From positions 1,364,001-1,428,000 of the forward strand of contig CP145413.1 in assembly GCA_036867785.1 (NCBI GenBank): a stretch of DNA of 64,000 nucleotides. The letters run 5' to 3'. The position numbers and the translations under genes are program-made. Positions 1-19,821 of the stretch are shown one piece after another. Each line of letters starts with the position of its first letter. Within the stretch, counting starts at the first letter, position 1. The notes beneath the pieces were generated by a model. The model was not told the DNA's origin and made no database searches. It saw only the letters and a list, made by a program, of their open reading frames with translations. This DNA is from Plasmodiophora brassicae (lineage: Eukaryota).

Positions 1-3000
1 GTGCTGACCCGATCACAACTTCGATCCTGAGCACCAGGAACCGCACCGCCAGCATCATCGGGCGCAACGCGACGCTGACAATCACTGGGGTCAACCTTCC
101 ATCGGGGGTCGGCACCATCACCATCAACAACGTGCCAATAACGTCGCCGGGCCAGACGATTCAGGCCATCTCGTCGGACATGTCGTTGACGTTCGCTCAG
201 GCGCTGGGACACACCGGGACGCCGATCGCCTCCATTGACGTCATCCTGTCGGTGCGTTCCCCCGGATTCACCCTCACGCAGCACGCCACCATCGTCATCA
301 ACGTGCGGTTGAACACGAGGCCGGTCGCCGGATCAGCAGGCAGTGCAACGTGGCTGGATGGCATTCAGCAGTACTTCATATCCCCATCGCTCGCCTGGCC
401 ACGTATCCAGCCTTCAAATGGCCTCTCCGCGATCACCGTCGAGTTCTGGGCGTATTTAGACGCGTCCTGCGCTGGGGACACCGCCTTCTTCAGTCTGAAC
501 GGCAACGGCGAGCAGAACCAGCCTTGGCCGATGGAGTTCGGCGCGAACCGTCGCTGGGGCCGCTGGCACGTCCAGATGCCGGACGGGAACAACAACATCA
601 ACTGGAACATTGGCAGCGACAACCTGGTGACGCCGGCGACCCCGTTCTATAACGGCTGGGCCCATTACGCATTCGTCGCCGACCACGTCCAGGGCACACA
701 GGCGGCAATCTACATCAACGGGCAGATGGTGGCCAACATGACCCGGGATCACGACGGGTTCCAGAACGTGGCCTCTCCGGGCGGGTATAATCACATCACG
801 GTCGGCACCTGGACCTTCTGGAGCGAGGTCTACAACAAGGGCATCTACGATGACCTGCGCTTGTGGAATCGGTCGCTGTCGGGTGAGGAGATTCGCCACC
901 GGATGTGGCAGCAGCTGCAGGGAGACGAACCCGACTTGTACGCGTACTGGACATTCGACGACAATTCGGGCGGTGTCGTACGCGATCTGACGCGACGCGG
1001 CCACGACCTGATCGCCGGCGGATGCGTCCCCTGTGAACCCCGATTCTACTGTCAACCCGACTTCGTGACGTGGGCAACTGAGCCAGTGCCTCCGCTGGAC
1101 TCATCGGCTTGTATTCCTTCGGCGAAATCGACATCATCGCCTGCGTTCCTGACGCGCACCTGCTTCGGCGGTACGCATTGCTTCCTGGGCAACGAGGACC
1201 CCGTCACGCGCCCGGGTCAGATCATCTCGTCGGCACCGATTGGCGGGGTCGTGTTCAGTCCGGTTGGGTTGACCGGGCACTCGATCGGCGTCATCCTGAA
1301 CGGGACTGATCCGGACGGGGACCCGGTCGCGTTCGCGGTCACCAGTTTTTCTTCGCATGGCGTTGTCCAGTATTGGAACGGGTCGACCTGGCACACGATC
1401 ACATCGTCGCCGGCAACGCTACCGACTGCCAAGTTACAAGTCCTCACGAATCAGGGAGACGGTGGCATGCCGTTTACAACGATCACGTACGTGGTCAGCG
1501 ACACGTACTCGGCGTCGACTCCTCTGACCGTCAACGTGAACGTCATGTGCACCGAGGGCACGTACCTGAACCAGACAGCGCGCCAGTGCCAGGCGTGCCC
1601 CGTCGGTACCTACGCACCTCTGCCGTCATTCAACACGTCGTGCATGCCCTGCCCGGTGAGCATGTTTCAGCCGAAGACGGGTGCGGTCAGCTGCGAACCG
1701 TGCGTGCCGGGGCGAACCTTCACTGCGCAGCCGGGTGCAGCTCAGTGCGCGCCCTGCAACGGCACACTGTCGCTGCACGATTCGCGCCTACCGCTCTCCA
1801 CGACGCTGTGTCGCGCGTCCTACCAAATCCCAAACCCAGTGGCAACTACAGGCGGGTCCATTTCGTACATCGAGTTCGCGCCATTGCTGATCGACATGAC
1901 GCCAAGCGACGCGCGTGTCATCATTCGCTCCATGCCCCAGTACGGCACCCTGCACCAAGTAGCTGAGGACGGCATCAGTGTCGCTGACGACGACGTCGGC
2001 CAGTACCAGTACGCGCCGATCGGCATCATGCCTCAATGGGTCGACCACGTTGTGGATGTCACATCTTCGGCAGCTGGATACCCGGCTGGTGCCTTGGTCG
2101 GTGCGTCCGACGTGCGCCTCAGCGGGGCCTCATCCAACGCTTGGTCACCGGACGGCCCTGTCGTCGCTACACTTACTGTCGGGTTCGCCGAGGCCGTCTA
2201 CACAACGGGGGTCAGCGTCTACGAGAACACGGGAGGCGGGGCGGTGCAACGTATTGAGGCGCAACGACCTGATGGCCGATGGGCGACGATCTGGTCGGGC
2301 GCAGTACTGCCTGTTGGGTTAACCGCGATGCGCACCTGGCAACCACCCATCTGTCCGACCAACTTCCCCACCCAGACGCTGCGCCTGACGGTGAACGCCC
2401 TGAAGAGTAAGGGCTCGCACGGTATCGATGCGATTCAATTGGTCGGCGCACCGTACCTGAATGGCACCGCCGAGATCATCATCGCCAACACCAACCTGAC
2501 CATCGCGTATCGCTCGCCGTCACTGTCGTCGATTGGTGCATCACCCGGGTACCAGCTGGTGGACAGCATCAGCTACGAAATTGTGTCTTGCCCAGCGGGA
2601 CTGGCTTTGATGACGTCGGGGACCCAGCAGTTATCAGTGACTTTGGGAACAAGCACGACCGCGCTTGCTGCGTTTACAGACGCCAGTTTGGCATCTGTCA
2701 TCGTTAGTATGGCGGTCTCGATCCTAGGCACCGTCGTCTGCATCGCATCCGCTGTTGTTATCTACATGTGGAAGGAGCAGCCGATCGTCAAGGCAGGTTC
2801 GGTCTACTTCCAGTTCGTTATGCTGTTCGGCATGTTCTGCGGGTTTCTGCTTCTGTTCCTGTCGGCCCTCTTCGAATGGAACCGTGCCTTATTGCCCGGG
2901 TTCTGTTCTGTTCGCCCGTTCCTGCTCTCTGTGTCTTTCGTTATGATAACTGGATCTATCATTGTGAAGACCGGGCGCATCCTGTACATTTTCATCTATG

Positions 3001-3653
3001 TCGATGGTAAGAGAGTGACCAAGGTGTTGAACTGGCAATTGTCAGCCTTGTTGGCCGTCATGTTCGCCATTGACGTGGCTATCGACCTGACCTGGCAGCT
3101 TGTCGATCCTCTCCAAACAACGATCGTCATCGACAGTACCGGCAGGGAGTACCACATGTGTTCGGGAGCGAACGCCCTGTCTGGGTTCTTCTACACGACC
3201 AGCGTCATCTACAAAAGCATTCTCATTGCCATCAGCATGCTGTTTGCCCTCAAGGTCCGCAACGCTCCATCCGTGTTTAACGAAGCCAAAGCCCTGTCCT
3301 TCATGGCGTACGCCATCTCAACGCAATGCCTTATCTTCCTGGTCCTCAGCAGCCTGATCGCCGATAACGCGTCTGCTTTGCTGTTCGTCACATGTTTCAA
3401 CATGGGCATTGCCCTGTTCTCAACCTGGACGATCCTAATCGGGTACAAATTCTATGTCGTCAAGTACTTGCCCGAAGAGAACATCGTGAAAATCATCAGA
3501 ACCGAAAACCGCAACAGCAACTTCGCTACGTTCAGAGCCCGCGACGCCCAGAAGAAGGAAGACCAGCTCACCCAAGGCACCAAGTCGTCCTTTGACGAAA
3601 CGGCAACCGCCGTCAACAAGAACCACTCCTTGGCGTCCGGTGCGGCTCTCTGA
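1..3653 (+). CDS. Large class C (GABA-B/7tm_3-like) GPCR with LamG/pentraxin, Ig/cadherin-like, Cys-rich (GCC2/ephrin-receptor-like) and pappalysin-like ectodomains; 5' truncated by window
   Basis: Frame is open from base 3. LamG motifs (TVEFW, WAHYAFV, DDLRLWNRSLS), DPDGDPVAF repeat, CxxCPxGTY repeats; seven hydrophobic segments with class C signatures (PIVKAGSVYF, KTGRILYIF, KVRNAPSVFNEAK). Confidence 0.88.
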   Translation, partial: ADPITTSILSTRNRTASIIGRNATLTITGVNLPSGVGTITINNVPITSPGQTIQAISSDMSLTFAQALGHTGTPIASIDVILSVRSPGFTLTQHATIVINVRLNTRPVAGSAGSATWLDGIQQYFISPSLAWPRIQPSNGLSAITVEFWAYLDASCAGDTAFFSLNGNGEQNQPWPMEFGANRRWGRWHVQMPDGNNNINWNIGSDNLVTPATPFYNGWAHYAFVADHVQGTQAAIYINGQMVANMTRDHDGFQNVASPGGYNHITVGTWTFWSEVYNKGIYDDLRLWNRSLSGEEIRHRMWQQLQGDEPDLYAYWTFDDNSGGVVRDLTRRGHDLIAGGCVPCEPRFYCQPDFVTWATEPVPPLDSSACIPSAKSTSSPAFLTRTCFGGTHCFLGNEDPVTRPGQIISSAPIGGVVFSPVGLTGHSIGVILNGTDPDGDPVAFAVTSFSSHGVVQYWNGSTWHTITSSPATLPTAKLQVLTNQGDGGMPFTTITYVVSDTYSASTPLTVNVNVMCTEGTYLNQTARQCQACPVGTYAPLPSFNTSCMPCPVSMFQPKTGAVSCEPCVPGRTFTAQPGAAQCAPCNGTLSLHDSRLPLSTTLCRASYQIPNPVATTGGSISYIEFAPLLIDMTPSDARVIIRSMPQYGTLHQVAEDGISVADDDVGQYQYAPIGIMPQWVDHVVDVTSSAAGYPAGALVGASDVRLSGASSNAWSPDGPVVATLTVGFAEAVYTTGVSVYENTGGGAVQRIEAQRPDGRWATIWSGAVLPVGLTAMRTWQPPICPTNFPTQTLRLTVNALKSKGSHGIDAIQLVGAPYLNGTAEIIIANTNLTIAYRSPSLSSIGASPGYQLVDSISYEIVSCPAGLALMTSGTQQLSVTLGTSTTALAAFTDASLASVIVSMAVSILGTVVCIASAVVIYMWKEQPIVKAGSVYFQFVMLFGMFCGFLLLFLSALFEWNRALLPGFCSVRPFLLSVSFVMITGSIIVKTGRILYIFIYVDGKRVTKVLNWQLSALLAVMFAIDVAIDLTWQLVDPLQTTIVIDSTGREYHMCSGANALSGFFYTTSVIYKSILIAISMLFALKVRNAPSVFNEAKALSFMAYAISTQCLIFLVLSSLIADNASALLFVTCFNMGIALFSTWTILIGYKFYVVKYLPEENIVKIIRTENRNSNFATFRARDAQKKEDQLTQGTKSSFDETATAVNKNHSLASGAAL

Positions 3654-16843: not shown

Positions 16844-17211
16844 AAGCAATAGCCAATGAATAATCCGTATCAAGTTCTCGATATCGATACTGGGCATGAA
16901 GTAGTTAGCCCATATAGCATGTTTGACCACGGTAGCTGAAGACTGTGAAGAGGTACTACCGTGGAGTTCTGGAAGGACAGCGTCAGTGACTTAGTAACTA
17001 TGGGTCCGATTGGGTTAAGTACTCTGATATGAAACGCAGTTCCCCAGCGACCTCCGGCAGATGTACCTTTACCGTACAACCACGATGATGGGAAGCACGT
17101 GCAACTGTCGCTTGGATCTGCTGTCCCGGAGAGGTACTTCGGACGGAGATGTCCTATCTGAAGTTGGCTTACGCCACTCAACTGACGTTTGTACCACGCG
17201 AACAGCCGCAT

Positions 17212-17324
17212 ACACTGCTCAGTCCCAGTTAAGTGGCCTGCGTCATCAGTCATCACTCATGAGTCATGACTTACCCAAACACTGCTCAGTCCCAGTCAAG
17301 TGGCCGGTGACATCACTCATCACT
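17212..17324. repeat. Imperfect direct repeat (~46 bp x2, 67-bp period) upstream of tRNA
   Basis: acactgctcagtcccagt(t/c)aagtggcc...catca(g/c)tcatcact at 17212 and 17279. Confidence 0.8.
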
Positions 17325-17372
17325 TACATTCACGTTCCCAACGAGGAGCCAGTTCTCCTGCTCGGCAGGCGT

Positions 17373-17445
17373 GCCCGATTAGCTCAGTTGGTAGAGCATG
17401 CGTCTAATAAGCGCAAGGTCATCAGTTCGAGACTGATATTGGGCA
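17373..17445 (+). tRNA. tRNA-Ile (AAT), copy 1
   Basis: Cloverleaf: acceptor GCCCGAT/ATTGGGC, D arm GCTC/GAGC, anticodon arm TGCGT-CT AAT AA-GCGCA, T arm ATCAG-TTCGAGA-CTGAT; T-run downstream. Confidence 0.95.
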
Positions 17446-17520
17446 ACAACGTTTGGTTTTGCGCACTCCCGCACAAGTCGTTCCAAAATGAACATTACTG
17501 TGCCAGTTAAGGTCCAGGTA

Positions 17521-17849
17521 GGAGGGTAGAGACGGGACAGAGCGTCGGGGAGCGTGTTCAAGATTCCAGGACGATGGATGACCTCGAAATTATCGTGTCG
17601 AGCCATGCCATGATGGTCGGGTTCAACTGCTATTGTGTTCGCCCTGAAGCGCTTCCATTTTTATGTGTGGGGTCGCCGCTTCATTCTGTATACGGATCAC
17701 CGTGCAATGTCGTTCATGCTCTCACAACGGCATTTGAACCCGACCATCACGACATGGCTCGACACGAACCTCGCTTATAATTTCGAGGTCATCCATCGTC
17801 CTGGAATCTTGCACACGCTCCCCGACGCTCTGCCCCGTCTCTACCCTCC
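17521..17849. mobile_element. Ty3/Gypsy RT-RNaseH fragment arranged as an inverted repeat (arms 17521-17626 / 17734-17849)
   Basis: + strand translates FALKRFHFYVWGRRFILYTDHRAM..FEVIHRPG..PDALPRL (Gypsy RNase H end); the left arm is the reverse complement with a 10-bp deletion and a few substitutions. Confidence 0.88.
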
Positions 17850-17987
17850 ACGCCTCCAGCGCGCCATCACAGCCGCCGGAGAACCCAGCACGCAGGGTAT
17901 GCGTCTGTCTGCGATGACTGCCTTCGGTAGTGGATGTTGAGTTCTCGCTTGTTCACTTTTATTTGGATATTCCCTGCGTGTTCATGA

Positions 17988-18402
17988 TTGGGCGATGCTG
18001 GCGAGCAAGTTCTGCAGACTGCTGCTTTGATGGTCTCTTCGGACAATCGGCCAGCTTTTGAGAGCCTTGGCAATGCCAGCATTTCAGCTTGTGTTCGCCA
18101 TGCATGGAGGCGCTGCGCCCGTTGAGCACGGCGCATTCCAGCATCCGCCATCCACCAACCGTCCTAGCAGTCATCAGCGCGCTCGCCAATTGATCACCGC
18201 CAACAAGAGAGCATCAGGCGACCGGCAAACGGCAGAGGGACGAGACGACGCCGTCTTCAGACGGCGCGGTTCGGTGGACGGCAATGGTGGAGCCTCGATG
18301 AACGGTAAACATGCTGAAACGCTGGCATTGCCAAGATTGATGGATGACTGTCCGACAACACGTTCAAAGCAACATCATAACTTGCTGACCAAAGTCGCCC
18401 AA
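17988..18402. mobile_element. Probable retrotransposon gag zinc-knuckle fragment as a diverged inverted repeat (arms ~17988-18161 / ~18267-18402)
   Basis: - strand reads KCWHCQGSQKLADCP (degenerate CCHC knuckle); 18066-18088 matches the reverse complement of 18313-18335 at 22/23. Confidence 0.6.
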
Positions 18403-18711
18403 CCCATCGCCCTCATCCTGCTGTCGCAGGTCCTTCAGTACCTTTTACTGCGTCACGATCTTGCTAAATTCGCCATACCCTCTTTGGACCAGCTCGCCAA
18501 CAGGCGCTTCTTGTCCTTTTACCGACTCCTGAAATGCCGCCGTGTTTAATCATTCAACAGGCACATCCCGTCGAAGAAGAGGAACCCGTCCGGCAGGTGC
18601 CCGCATGGGAGCGGGCCAGAACCAGCAGCGGGACCCAGTTCATCTACTGCGATTCCGGCATATGCAAACTCTCCCGGACGCATGGTGTTCTCCTCCAGGT
18701 AAGAGGTGTTC

Positions 18712-18938
18712 TGGGGTGTGATCCGAGCCAAGCTAAAGCCCGCGCGCGCTGACGACGTCGGGAAGTCTGGAAAGCTGATACTGAGGTCGTGGACGTATAC
18801 GCGCAGAACATAAGTTGGTATCGCAAGGCCATATTCATCGGCTGTTCGAAGACGCCGAAAGCTAGCAATTTCAGCGTTCGATGACTTCCCGTCGCCAGCG
18901 CACGCGGGCTTTAGCTAATTAGCTTGGATCACGCCCCA
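18712..18938. repeat. Inverted repeat, ~56-bp arms (18712-18767 / 18883-18938), 115-bp loop
   Basis: tggggtgtgatccgagcca..agctaaagcccgcgcgcgctgacgac..gggaagtc vs gacttcccgtcgccagcgcacgcgggctttagct..agcttggatcacgcccca. Confidence 0.85.
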
Positions 18939-18979
18939 AACCGCGCAGCAGATTGGCTGCCTAGGTAGTCGTCAGACGT

Positions 18980-19052
18980 GCCCGATTAGCTCAGTTGGTA
19001 GAGCATGCGTCTAATAAGCGCAAGGTCATCAGTTCGAGACTGATATTGGGCA
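18980..19052 (+). tRNA. tRNA-Ile (AAT), copy 2
   Basis: Identical 73-nt sequence to 17373-17445, followed by a TTTTT Pol III terminator. Confidence 0.95.
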
Positions 19053-19821
19053 TCAACTTTTGGTTTCGCGCACTCCTGCACATGTTCCTCAATGACACCG
19101 AATTCCAAATACTTGAACGCGTTCTCGATAAACGCCGAATCCACCTGAACGCGATCTCGATATTGTCGGCAGTCACCGCTCAATCTCAACGAGGTCATGA
19201 GACGACTTTCCCAGACTTAACGAATGAGTTCGCCCAGTCCTGGAAGCGCAATCATGAATCTCTCGTTGACGGTCCTGAACGGTCGCCAATGGCGGACGAC
19301 CTGATAGTTTTGCACCTGGCTCAGACTGTCCAGTATAGCCAGCGGTAGATGCGTCCTCGCATGGGACTATCGCCCTAAAGGCGTCGTCCTCCACCGAGCA
19401 CAGCAGCTGAAATGTTTCGACTGCATGCAGCAGACATTCCAATGATACCTATTGTGTTTATGCCTCCATGGTAAGCTACATCCCTATTGGTCGCACGACA
19501 TCGTGCGAAACGTTCTTGAAACTTGCTGGCTGAGTCTGTTATGTAGACCGGACCGCCCAATTAGGGCGCCACGAGAGCAGCTGCTTTCGTGTCGCATCGC
19601 TAGGACGGCGCGATGGTTCAAACCCGTCGAAGCCTCGAAGCGCTGTGTCCGGCTTGTGCCGATTATTCGACCTGGGGCACGGCAGGTTCAACGAACGACG
19701 ACATGAAACCTTGTCGAATTTCGAATGATTAGACGGAATGCGCTACGTCTAATGCGACGAAGGACACTGTAGATCCCAGTATCCGAGTACAAATTACGTG
19801 TGGCTGCAGGATTGTCATATT

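What the first reader, a model, noticed from the sequence alone, without database searches (positions are those of the whole stretch)
17366..19082. tRNA-bracketed cassette of three tandem fold-back repeats: candidate hairpin-RNA/siRNA 'TE memory' locus
Seen: two identical tRNA-Ile(AAT) genes in direct orientation enclose ~1.5 kb with no intact gene. It holds three separate inverted repeats with ~105-115 bp loops: 17521-17626/17734-17849 (Gypsy RNase H), ~17988-18161/18267-18402 (gag CCHC-like) and 18712-18767/18883-18938. The three hairpins are unrelated to each other and differ in arm divergence, suggesting sequential acquisition. Established: hairpin RNAs feed Dicer/siRNA pathways, and tRNA loci attract retroelements and can act as chromatin boundaries. 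Inference: a compact array of short TE pieces captured as hairpins between tRNA genes could be a programmable anti-transposon silencing locus. Caveat: both tRNAs have T-run terminators, so Pol III read-through is not guaranteed.
Basis: partly seen in the sequence, partly recalled or inferred. Interest (0 to 1): 0.85.

Follow-up and report, generated by a model that had tools for sequence, protein, structure and literature searches.

The report
Fold-back DNA relics between two tRNA genes
Between two copies of an isoleucine tRNA gene in the clubroot pathogen Plasmodiophora brassicae lie three decayed inverted duplications, one made from a dead retrotransposon fragment; they could feed the organism's unusual RNA-silencing system, but nothing seen here shows that they do.

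Summary
Two tRNA-Ile(AAT) genes, identical over the mature 73 nt, bracket 1.5 kb with no credible gene and three unrelated inverted repeats. Their loops are 85-105 nt and arm identity is about 94%, 81% and 90%. All three fold far better than shuffles.

Only hairpin 1 is shown to come from a transposon: it is a Ty3/Gypsy RNase H fragment. The gag reading of hairpin 2 is a weak lead. Hairpin 3 has no identifiable origin.

The window comes from Plasmodiophora brassicae. A 2026 paper reports two Argonautes and a Drosha-like nuclease in this species, but no Dicer and no RdRP. It also reports long-hairpin small-RNA loci that often sit in clusters. So the hairpin-to-siRNA idea is biologically plausible here.

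Several results weaken the 'TE memory' reading:
- No listed mature miRNA maps to the cassette.
- No close parent element was found.
- T-runs would block Pol III read-through.
- A fourth fold-back in the window is neither TE-derived nor next to a tRNA.

Best reading: these are local inverted duplications that accumulated in a non-genic spacer, possibly helped by fork stalling at the tRNA genes. Any small-RNA output is untested. Interest is modest; if expressed, it is a new member of a known kind.

The parts
17373..17445 (+). tRNA-Ile(AAT), copy 1. The repeat unit with flanks is 17362-17478. A T4 run lies at 17457-17460.
17521..17849 (.). Hairpin 1. The left arm 17521-17637 is an inverted copy of 17723-17849. 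The 85-nt loop carries a T5 run at 17658-17662.
   Evidence: z -21
17626..17949 (+). Relic Ty3/Gypsy pol fragment, from the end of RNase H to the start of integrase. It runs colinearly through the loop and right arm of hairpin 1 and about 100 nt beyond.
   Evidence: RT_RNaseH, E 1.1e-10; 12 of 12 Gypsy polyproteins align at 17629-17844 or further
17988..18402 (.). Hairpin 2. Arms 17988-18161 / 18267-18402, about 81% identical, loop 105 nt. Origin unknown. A degenerate C-X2-C-X8-C motif lies at 18043-18081 on the - strand.
   Evidence: (z -6.1)
18073..18549 (+). Longest ORF of the cassette, 158 aa from its first Met. It runs through both arms of hairpin 2. Its only database relatives are the same locus in other data of the species, so it is probably not a gene.
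   Evidence: (GC3 0.60)
18708..18941 (.). Hairpin 3. Arms 18708-18778 / 18871-18941, about 90% identical, loop 92 nt. Origin unknown.
   Evidence: (z -7.9)
18980..19052 (+). tRNA-Ile(AAT), copy 2. The repeat unit with flanks is 18969-19085. A T4 run lies at 19058-19061.

Best explanation
The cassette is the non-genic spacer between two tandem tRNA-Ile(AAT) genes of Plasmodiophora brassicae. Three separate local inverted duplications (fold-backs) have accumulated there and are now decaying.

Each probably arose in one step. One route is a replication template switch. Another is fold-back priming at a break, which copies about 70-170 nt of nearby sequence in reverse orientation and leaves an 85-105 nt spacer. 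Hairpin 1 was made this way from a stranded 320-nt fragment of a Ty3/Gypsy pol gene.

The tRNA genes are functional genes in their own right. Their link to the hairpins is most likely indirect. They may make this interval prone to fork stalling and repair errors, and it is one of the few gene-free stretches nearby where such junk can persist.

If the interval is transcribed, the hairpins would be substrates for the species' Drosha-like nuclease and would yield 21-nt small RNAs. That would most likely be a by-product, not a selected anti-transposon memory.

Shown: the structures, their clustering, the Gypsy origin of hairpin 1 and its A'-B-A-C layout. Inferred: the mechanism of formation, the role of the tRNA genes, and any small-RNA output.
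For: 1. Layout of hairpin 1. The Gypsy homology runs colinearly on the + strand from about 17629 to 17949, through loop, right arm and beyond. The left arm is an inverted copy of the internal segment 17723-17849 only, with no TE sequence outside it. This is what a local inverted duplication gives. Two independent head-to-head insertions would not look like this. The left arm also carries a 10-nt deletion that breaks the pol frame, while the right arm keeps it.

2. A fourth fold-back of the same design lies at 26230-27103 / 27157-28037 (862 of 869 aligned positions identical, 53-nt spacer). It is not TE-derived and not beside a tRNA. So the process is general in this genome.

3. No sign of a working target or parent:
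- None of the arms recurs in the window.
- The best pol relatives among 5.8 billion proteins are 41-60% identical (12 hits among 158 candidates).
- The hairpin 2 ORF matches only its own locus among 1.84 billion representatives.
- The hairpin 3 ORF has no hit among 583 candidates.

4. No sign of constraint. Arms differ by 6%, 19-22% and 10%. Between isolates, the 4 amino-acid differences in the 158-aa ORF fall in the left arm, the loop, the right arm and outside, so the arms are not spared.

5. Pol III read-through is unlikely. The + strand carries T4 at 17457, T5 at 17658 in the HP1 loop, and T4 at 17957, 18056, 18443 and 18517.

6. Background from papers, seen as search listing and abstract openings only:
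- tRNA genes are fork-pausing and instability sites in yeast (PMC5413955; 10.1101/2020.01.29.925644).
- Template switching and fold-back priming create inverted duplications and new hairpins (PMC10710096, PMC8794818, PMC10622511).
Against: Clustering of 3 of the window's 4 inverted repeats in 1.5 kb is stronger than a uniform mutational process predicts. My rough estimate is P about 1e-4 over the whole window, and about 2e-3 if only an assumed ~20 kb of non-coding DNA is counted.

The species does make abundant 21-nt small RNAs, mostly from intergenic DNA and then from TEs. It lacks RdRP, so it needs hairpin or convergent dsRNA sources. Its annotated hairpin loci are often 200-990 nt long and sit in groups of 2-3 within 1-2 kb, for example Pb-miR032, 033 and 034 (PMC13547706 section 2.2 and Table S8). 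That is the same design as this cassette, so a selected small-RNA cluster is not excluded.

The hairpin 2 region is present in at least two isolate lineages. No junction microhomology was examined. No replication or breakage data exist for this organism. The formation mechanism rests on analogy.
Confidence: 0.55

Rival explanations
1. Hairpin-RNA (hpRNA) small-RNA cluster. The interval is transcribed, probably by Pol II read-through from a neighbouring gene. The three fold-backs are cut by the Drosha-like PbDRL into 21-nt siRNAs loaded on PbAGO1 or PbAGO2. These act against the parent elements or genes.
For: The host has an RdRP-less, Dicer-less RNAi pathway whose siRNA precursors are unexplained. 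PbDRL cuts long dsRNA. [quoted passage not shown] Small-RNA loci are mainly intergenic, then TE (PMC13547706 sections 2.2, 2.3 and 3). Annotated hairpin precursors reach about 990 nt and often cluster (Table S8). All three hairpins fold strongly. The - strand of the cassette carries only one T4 run. Mu killer in maize is a precedent for a TE inverted duplication acting as a silencer (PMC3440606, abstract).
Against: None of the 225 listed mature miRNA names begins in the cassette. Twelve share an 8-mer prefix, and none extends beyond 10 nt (the check was done by eye). Only 1 of 3 hairpins is shown to be TE-derived. No target of 90% identity or more was seen. Arms are decayed to 78-94%. siRNA and PHAS loci are listed only by coordinates of another assembly and could not be mapped.
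Confidence: 0.3
2. tRNA-driven Pol III precursors. Read-through from tRNA copy 1 makes a tRNA-hairpin chimeric RNA, as in the tRNA-miRNA units of murine gammaherpesvirus 68 (recalled, not checked here).
For: The hairpins lie downstream of a tRNA gene on the same strand. The terminator is only T4, which is weak in some yeasts (recalled).
Against: Hairpin 1 starts 75 nt after the tRNA, beyond the T4 run. A T5 run sits in its loop, so both arms would seldom be on one Pol III transcript. Four more T4 runs follow. The hairpins are 234-415 nt long, much larger than Pol III pre-miRNA units.
Confidence: 0.04
3. The hairpins are non-autonomous DNA transposons (MITE or TIR elements, or Foldback-like elements) that inserted near the tRNA genes.
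For: Each has terminal inverted repeats. An automatic annotation of the species counts 812 TIR-type elements (Table S5 as quoted), some of which may be structures like these (my inference).
Against: No target-site duplication is visible at any of the three (read). There is no second copy in the window. The arms and loop of hairpin 1 are retrotransposon pol coding sequence.
Confidence: 0.05
4. Assembly artefact: chimeric or fold-back reads produced false inverted repeats.
For: The inner 740 nt of the 26-28 kb palindrome are perfectly identical, which can arise from read artefacts.
Against: The three cassette hairpins have diverged arms with indels, unlike read fold-backs. The hairpin 2 region is recovered independently in two other assemblies of public reads, one identical and one with 4 amino-acid changes.
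Confidence: 0.02

Closest known systems
Mu killer of maize, a natural inverted duplication of a transposon that silences it
   Same: A partial TE sequence is duplicated in inverted orientation and could be read as a hairpin from flanking transcription (PMC3440606, abstract).
   Different: Mu killer is about 4 kb, nearly perfect, derived from an active DNA transposon with live targets, and genetically proven. Hairpin 1 has 117-nt arms at 94% identity, derives from a retroelement with no close relative found, and has no expression data.
Long-hairpin 'miRNA' and palindromic small-RNA loci of Plasmodiophora brassicae (PMC13547706)
   Same: Same species. Hairpin precursors are of similar size (58-993 nt in Table S8). 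Groups of 2-3 hairpins often lie within 1-2 kb. Their location is intergenic or in TEs.
   Different: None of the listed mature sequences lies in this cassette. Nothing in the parts of the paper I read or searched links those loci to tRNA genes.
Inverted-duplication origin of young plant MIR genes and Drosophila hpRNAs
   Same: A fragment of a future target is duplicated in reverse, giving a long imperfect hairpin that decays with age (PMC3237417, abstract opening; the Drosophila hpRNAs are recalled).
   Different: Those loci are shown to be expressed and processed and to have identifiable parents. Here the parents of 2 of 3 hairpins are unknown.
Template-switch mutations and fold-back inversions
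   Same: An A'-B-A layout in which B-A is colinear with the source, with a short unique spacer (PMC10710096, PMC8794818, PMC10622511; abstract openings).
   Different: The title and abstract opening of the miRNA paper concern short stem-loops yielding ~22-nt products, and fold-back inversions in yeast and cancer are usually much larger (sizes beyond that are recalled). Arms of 70-170 nt with 85-105 nt loops lie in between. Junction microhomology was not examined.
tRNA-targeted Ty3/Gypsy-type insertion (Ty3 of yeast, DGLT-A of Dictyostelium; recalled)
   Same: A Gypsy-type relic lies next to tRNA genes. The homology between the two tRNA copies breaks down clearly about 11 nt upstream of the mature tRNA, near the expected Pol III start. 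A further weak stretch upstream was not established.
   Different: The fragment lies about 180 nt downstream of copy 1 and about 1 kb upstream of copy 2, has no LTR, and is 320 nt of internal pol. Targeting cannot be inferred.

Membership tests
TE-derived hairpin silencer (Mu killer / hpRNA type) | Inverted duplication of a TE fragment able to form long dsRNA | tested here: met
   Hairpin 1 only: RT_RNaseH E 1.1e-10, arms 110 of 117 identical, fold z -21. Hairpins 2 and 3 are not shown to be TE-derived.
TE-derived hairpin silencer (Mu killer / hpRNA type) | One transcript spans both arms | not testable with these tools
   No RNA data are held. T-runs argue against Pol III. Pol II read-through from a neighbouring gene remains possible.
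TE-derived hairpin silencer (Mu killer / hpRNA type) | Small RNAs map to the arms | tested here: inconclusive
   None of the 225 listed mature miRNA names maps (by eye). The 78,890 siRNAs are not listed by sequence, and PHAS loci are given only by coordinates of another assembly.
TE-derived hairpin silencer (Mu killer / hpRNA type) | Near-identical target copies exist in the genome | tested here: inconclusive
   None in the 64 kb window. The best pol relatives in the protein collection are 41-60% identical. No whole genome is held.
Annotated P. brassicae miRNA locus (Table S8 of PMC13547706) | A listed mature sequence lies within the locus | tested here: not met
   Twelve listed miRNAs share their first 8 nt with the cassette, and none extends beyond 10 nt. 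Isolate differences could hide a match.
Intact Ty3/Gypsy LTR retrotransposon | LTRs, gag, protease, RT, RNase H and integrase in order | tested here: not met
   Only about 320 nt of RNase H and the start of integrase match. All 12 polyproteins hit nothing else in the window at E below 0.005.
MITE / TIR DNA transposon | Target-site duplication and several copies | tested here: not met
   No duplicated flank at any hairpin (read). No second copy in the window. The rest of the genome was not testable.
Pol III tRNA-hairpin unit | Hairpin directly follows the tRNA with no terminator between or inside | tested here: not met
   T4 at 17457-17460 lies before hairpin 1, and T5 at 17658-17662 lies in its loop.
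Local inverted duplication (template switch / fold-back priming) | A'-B-A layout with B-A colinear with the source sequence and a short spacer | tested here: met
   Hairpin 1. For hairpins 2 and 3 the source is unknown, so only the short spacer is shown.
Local inverted duplication (template switch / fold-back priming) | Microhomology at the switch points | not tested
   Arm ends are blurred by later divergence. No ancestral sequence is available.
Retroviral-type zinc knuckle (gag) in hairpin 2 | C-X2-C-X4-H-X4-C motif or a zf-CCHC profile match | tested here: not met
   No strict motif in any of six frames, only C-X2-C-X8-C at 18043-18081 on the - strand. No Pfam match at E up to 1. The Atlas nearest clusters carry zf-CCHC in 40-54% of members, but the score is 0.87, below the 0.9 lead threshold.

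The most novel reading that the evidence does not exclude
In P. brassicae, which lacks both Dicer and RdRP, genome-encoded fold-backs like these are the main source of siRNA precursors. tRNA genes act as nurseries. Fork stalling there repeatedly folds nearby TE or gene fragments into hairpins, so a tRNA-bracketed spacer becomes a sequentially written, heritable record of past invaders that is read out as 21-nt RNAs.
Probability: 0.1. Interest if true: 0.7.

Novelty: new member of a known kind. Interest (0 to 1): 0.3.

Why it matters
The 2026 description of RNAi in this crop pathogen leaves one question open: how dsRNA precursors arise without an RdRP. Fold-back loci such as this cassette, and the much younger 1.8 kb palindrome 8 kb away, are concrete candidates. 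The published small-RNA libraries could test them directly.

If the loci are silent, the result is still useful. It shows that short-spacer inverted duplications form and decay as ordinary mutations in this genome. It also suggests that automatic 'TIR transposon' or 'miRNA precursor' calls there may include such debris.

The tRNA bracket alone is not evidence of a system.

Tried and rejected
- Whole genome: none is held. A genome-wide census of tRNA-flanked hairpins, a search for parent elements and a comparison of isolates were therefore impossible.
- Earlier notes of this scan: empty by place, by sequence and by words.
- Rfam: only the two tRNAs in the window.
- Pfam: of 8 cassette ORFs, only RT_RNaseH is credible. 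Six flanking ORFs gave nothing credible.
- Hairpin 3 ORF against longer proteins: none of 583 candidates reached E 0.1.
- Hairpin 2 ORF against 1.84 billion representatives: only its own locus.
- Atlas look-ups: zf-CCHC clusters at 0.87 for hairpin 2, a lead only, and nothing for hairpin 3.
- Metagenome scan with a 32-nt stretch of the hairpin 1 arm: 0 matches.
- Exact look-up of 10 further ORFs (8 from the cassette and its edge, 1 from the large palindrome, 1 neighbour): none is in the collection.
- Bacterial-type promoter and terminator scan: uninformative for a eukaryote.
- The 49-nt direct repeat upstream of tRNA copy 1 occurs only at 17213 and 17280.
- Listed mature miRNAs of the species were compared by eye with printed 8-mer indexes of the cassette and of the 26-28 kb palindrome. 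No match extended beyond 10 nt. I did not type the published miRNAs into any tool, so the check is manual and could miss a variant.
- RIP-like mutation: rejected. Arm differences are 5 transitions to 2 transversions, 12 to 12, and 5 to 2, with no strong bias.
- Two independent head-to-head Gypsy insertions: rejected, because the left arm carries no TE sequence beyond the duplicated segment.
- A weak tblastn hit upstream of tRNA copy 1 (E 0.013 at word size 2) did not recur with default settings.
Full report
**What is there**

The window holds exactly two tRNA genes. Both are tRNA-Ile(AAT) on the + strand (ARAGORN 17372-17447 and 18979-19054; Rfam 17373-17445 and 18980-19052, 63.9 bits each). 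They sit inside a 117-nt direct repeat, 17362-17478 / 18969-19085, at 94% identity. Read against the sequence, the 73-nt mature tRNAs are identical. All 7 mismatches lie in the flanks: 2 in the 11 nt upstream and 5 in the 33 nt downstream. The duplication is therefore not recent, and the tRNA bodies have been kept intact.

Each copy is followed by a T4 run, at 17457-17460 and 19058-19061. The 1531 nt between them hold no credible gene. The longest ORF, 158 aa from its first Met (18073-18549), has a GC3 of 0.60, against 0.65-0.78 for three neighbouring genes. Among 1.84 billion representative proteins its only relative is the same locus in other data of the same species.

**The three inverted repeats are real**

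- Hairpin 1: arms 17521-17637 / 17723-17849, with 110 matches, 7 mismatches and one 10-nt indel. The loop is 85 nt.
- Hairpin 2: arms 17988-18111 / 18292-18402 under strict scoring.
- Hairpin 3: arms 18708-18778 / 18871-18941, with 60 matches and 7 mismatches. The loop is 92 nt.

As RNA they fold with z-scores of -21.0, -6.1 and -7.9. No shuffle folds as well (0 of 100, 100 and 200). They are unrelated to each other and to the rest of the window. A self-comparison of all 64 kb gives only four inverted pairs, three of them here. The clustering is therefore not chance.

**What the pieces are**

Hairpin 1 is a Ty3/Gypsy relic. The ORF 17614-17940 (+) matches Pfam RT_RNaseH (E 1.1e-10, 42.1 bits against a cut-off of 24.8). 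A search of longer proteins returned 12 hits among 158 candidates. Most (9 of 12) have the RT/RNase H/integrase architecture, many with a chromodomain; three are shorter RNase H-bearing fragments. Identity is 41-60%.

All 12 align to 17629-17844 or further on the + strand, up to 17949, and to the left arm on the - strand. They align nowhere else in the window at E below 0.005.

The layout is informative. TE homology runs colinearly through loop, right arm and about 100 nt beyond (B-A-C). The left arm is an inverted copy of A alone, with a 10-nt deletion that breaks the frame. This is the signature of a local inverted duplication of part of a stranded fragment. It is not what two insertions would give.

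Hairpin 2 has no Pfam match and no strict CCHC knuckle in any frame. It has only C-X2-C-X8-C at 18043-18081 on the - strand. An Atlas look-up places it nearest to clusters in which 40-54% of members carry zf-CCHC, but at a score of 0.87, below the level at which such a hit counts as more than a lead. Hairpin 3 has no relative. So 'three TE pieces' is shown for one piece only.

**The organism and why it matters**

A kinesin-2 gene at 35918-38152 is identical to one member, and 99% identical to the others, of a cluster named from Plasmodiophora brassicae. I read sections 2.2 and 3 of a 2026 paper on this species (PMC13547706), passages of its other sections, and part of its supplementary Tables S5-S9. 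It reports the following:

- 90% of its small RNAs are 21 nt long, phased and 5'-C biased.
- Small-RNA loci are mainly intergenic, then TE.
- There are two Argonautes and a Drosha-like nuclease that cuts long dsRNA, but no Dicer and no RdRP.
[quoted passage not shown] - Table S8 lists 234 miRNA loci with precursors of 58-993 nt. Many lie in groups of two or three within 1-2 kb, such as Pb-miR032, 033 and 034.

In this organism, genome-encoded hairpins are the obvious way to make dsRNA, and multi-hairpin clusters do exist.

**Tests of the silencing idea that I could run**

- I compared the first 8 nt of every listed mature miRNA (225 names) by eye with a printed index of all 8-mers of 17448-18978 on both strands. 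Twelve prefixes occur, and none extends beyond 10 nt. The same check on the 26-28 kb palindrome was also negative. The cassette is therefore not an annotated miRNA locus. Its status as a siRNA or PHAS locus could not be checked, because those are listed only by coordinates of another assembly.
- No target was found. None of the arms recurs in the window, and no pol protein above 60% identity exists in the collection.
- Pol III read-through would meet T4 before hairpin 1, T5 inside its loop and four more T4 runs. The - strand has only one such run, so Pol II read-through from the right-hand side is conceivable. That is inference.
- Between isolates, the 4 amino-acid differences in the 158-aa ORF fall in the left arm, loop, right arm and outside. 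That gives no hint that pairing is protected, although the numbers are tiny.

**A fourth fold-back changes the picture**

At 26230-27103 / 27157-28037 lies a much younger palindrome. It has 862 of 869 aligned positions identical, all 7 mismatches are in the outer 130 nt, and the spacer is 53 nt. Its arms carry head-to-head ORFs with a signal-peptide-like start and a Gly/Ser-rich body. They do not carry a TE, and no tRNA is near. Short-spacer inverted duplication is thus a general mutational habit of this genome.

Papers seen as search listing and abstract openings describe two such mechanisms: replication template switching that creates hairpins and new miRNAs (PMC10710096, PMC8794818), and fold-back priming at breaks (PMC10622511). 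tRNA genes are known fork-pausing and instability sites in yeast (PMC5413955; 10.1101/2020.01.29.925644). That could explain why three events lie between two tRNA genes.

**Verdict**

The most likely account (0.55) is accumulated, decaying local inverted duplications in a tolerant, possibly fragile spacer between two working tRNA genes. The main rival (0.3) is that the same structures are an expressed hairpin small-RNA cluster of the kind already described for this species. A selected, tRNA-organised 'TE memory' is the boldest reading that remains open (about 0.1).

The concept has clear precedents: Mu killer (PMC3440606, abstract), the inverted-duplication model for young plant miRNA genes (PMC3237417, abstract opening), and the long-hairpin loci of this species. 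At best this is a new member of a known kind.

A mapping of the published small-RNA reads to 17300-19100 would decide between the first two readings.

Noticed in passing
window 26230-28037: A near-perfect 1.8 kb palindrome. Arms are 26230-27103 / 27157-28037, 862 of 869 aligned positions identical, with all mismatches in the outer 130 nt and a 53-nt spacer. The arms carry head-to-head ORFs (26342-26929 on the - strand, 27330-27917 on the + strand) with a signal-peptide-like start and a Gly/Ser-rich body. The right arm ends inside the upstream part of an RPAP1-like gene. If transcribed through, it would be a strong dsRNA source. No listed miRNA maps to it.
   Followed up: partly
window 17209-17257 and 17276-17324: A 49-nt direct repeat (88% identity, 67-nt spacing) lies just upstream of tRNA copy 1. 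Its 26-nt core occurs only at these two places in the window, against 0 expected by chance. Its meaning is unknown.
   Followed up: partly
window 31489-34494 (- strand): A 1002-aa uninterrupted ORF encodes a PPR protein with a C-terminal DYW deaminase domain (E 1e-19). This is the architecture of plant-type RNA-editing factors and is unusual outside land plants.
   Followed up: no
window 3-3650 (+ strand): A 1216-aa ORF combines Laminin_G_3, ephrin-receptor-like repeats and a class C (7tm_3) GPCR domain.
   Followed up: no
P0133 / P0134 (Logan contigs of 1200 and 1225 nt): The hairpin 2 ORF is found on two short contigs assembled from public reads. Their length is close to the distance from the right arm of hairpin 1 to tRNA copy 2 (about 1205 nt). 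That would fit assembly breaks at the two repeats (my inference). Whether the reads are DNA or RNA is unknown. If RNA, they would show transcription.
   Followed up: no
PMC13547706 Table S5 (quoted): An automatic annotation counts 600 'Mutator' and 212 other TIR elements in a 25 Mb genome, roughly 2 per 64 kb. That is of the same order as the 4 fold-backs seen in this window. Some of those calls may be fold-back duplications and not DNA transposons.
   Followed up: no
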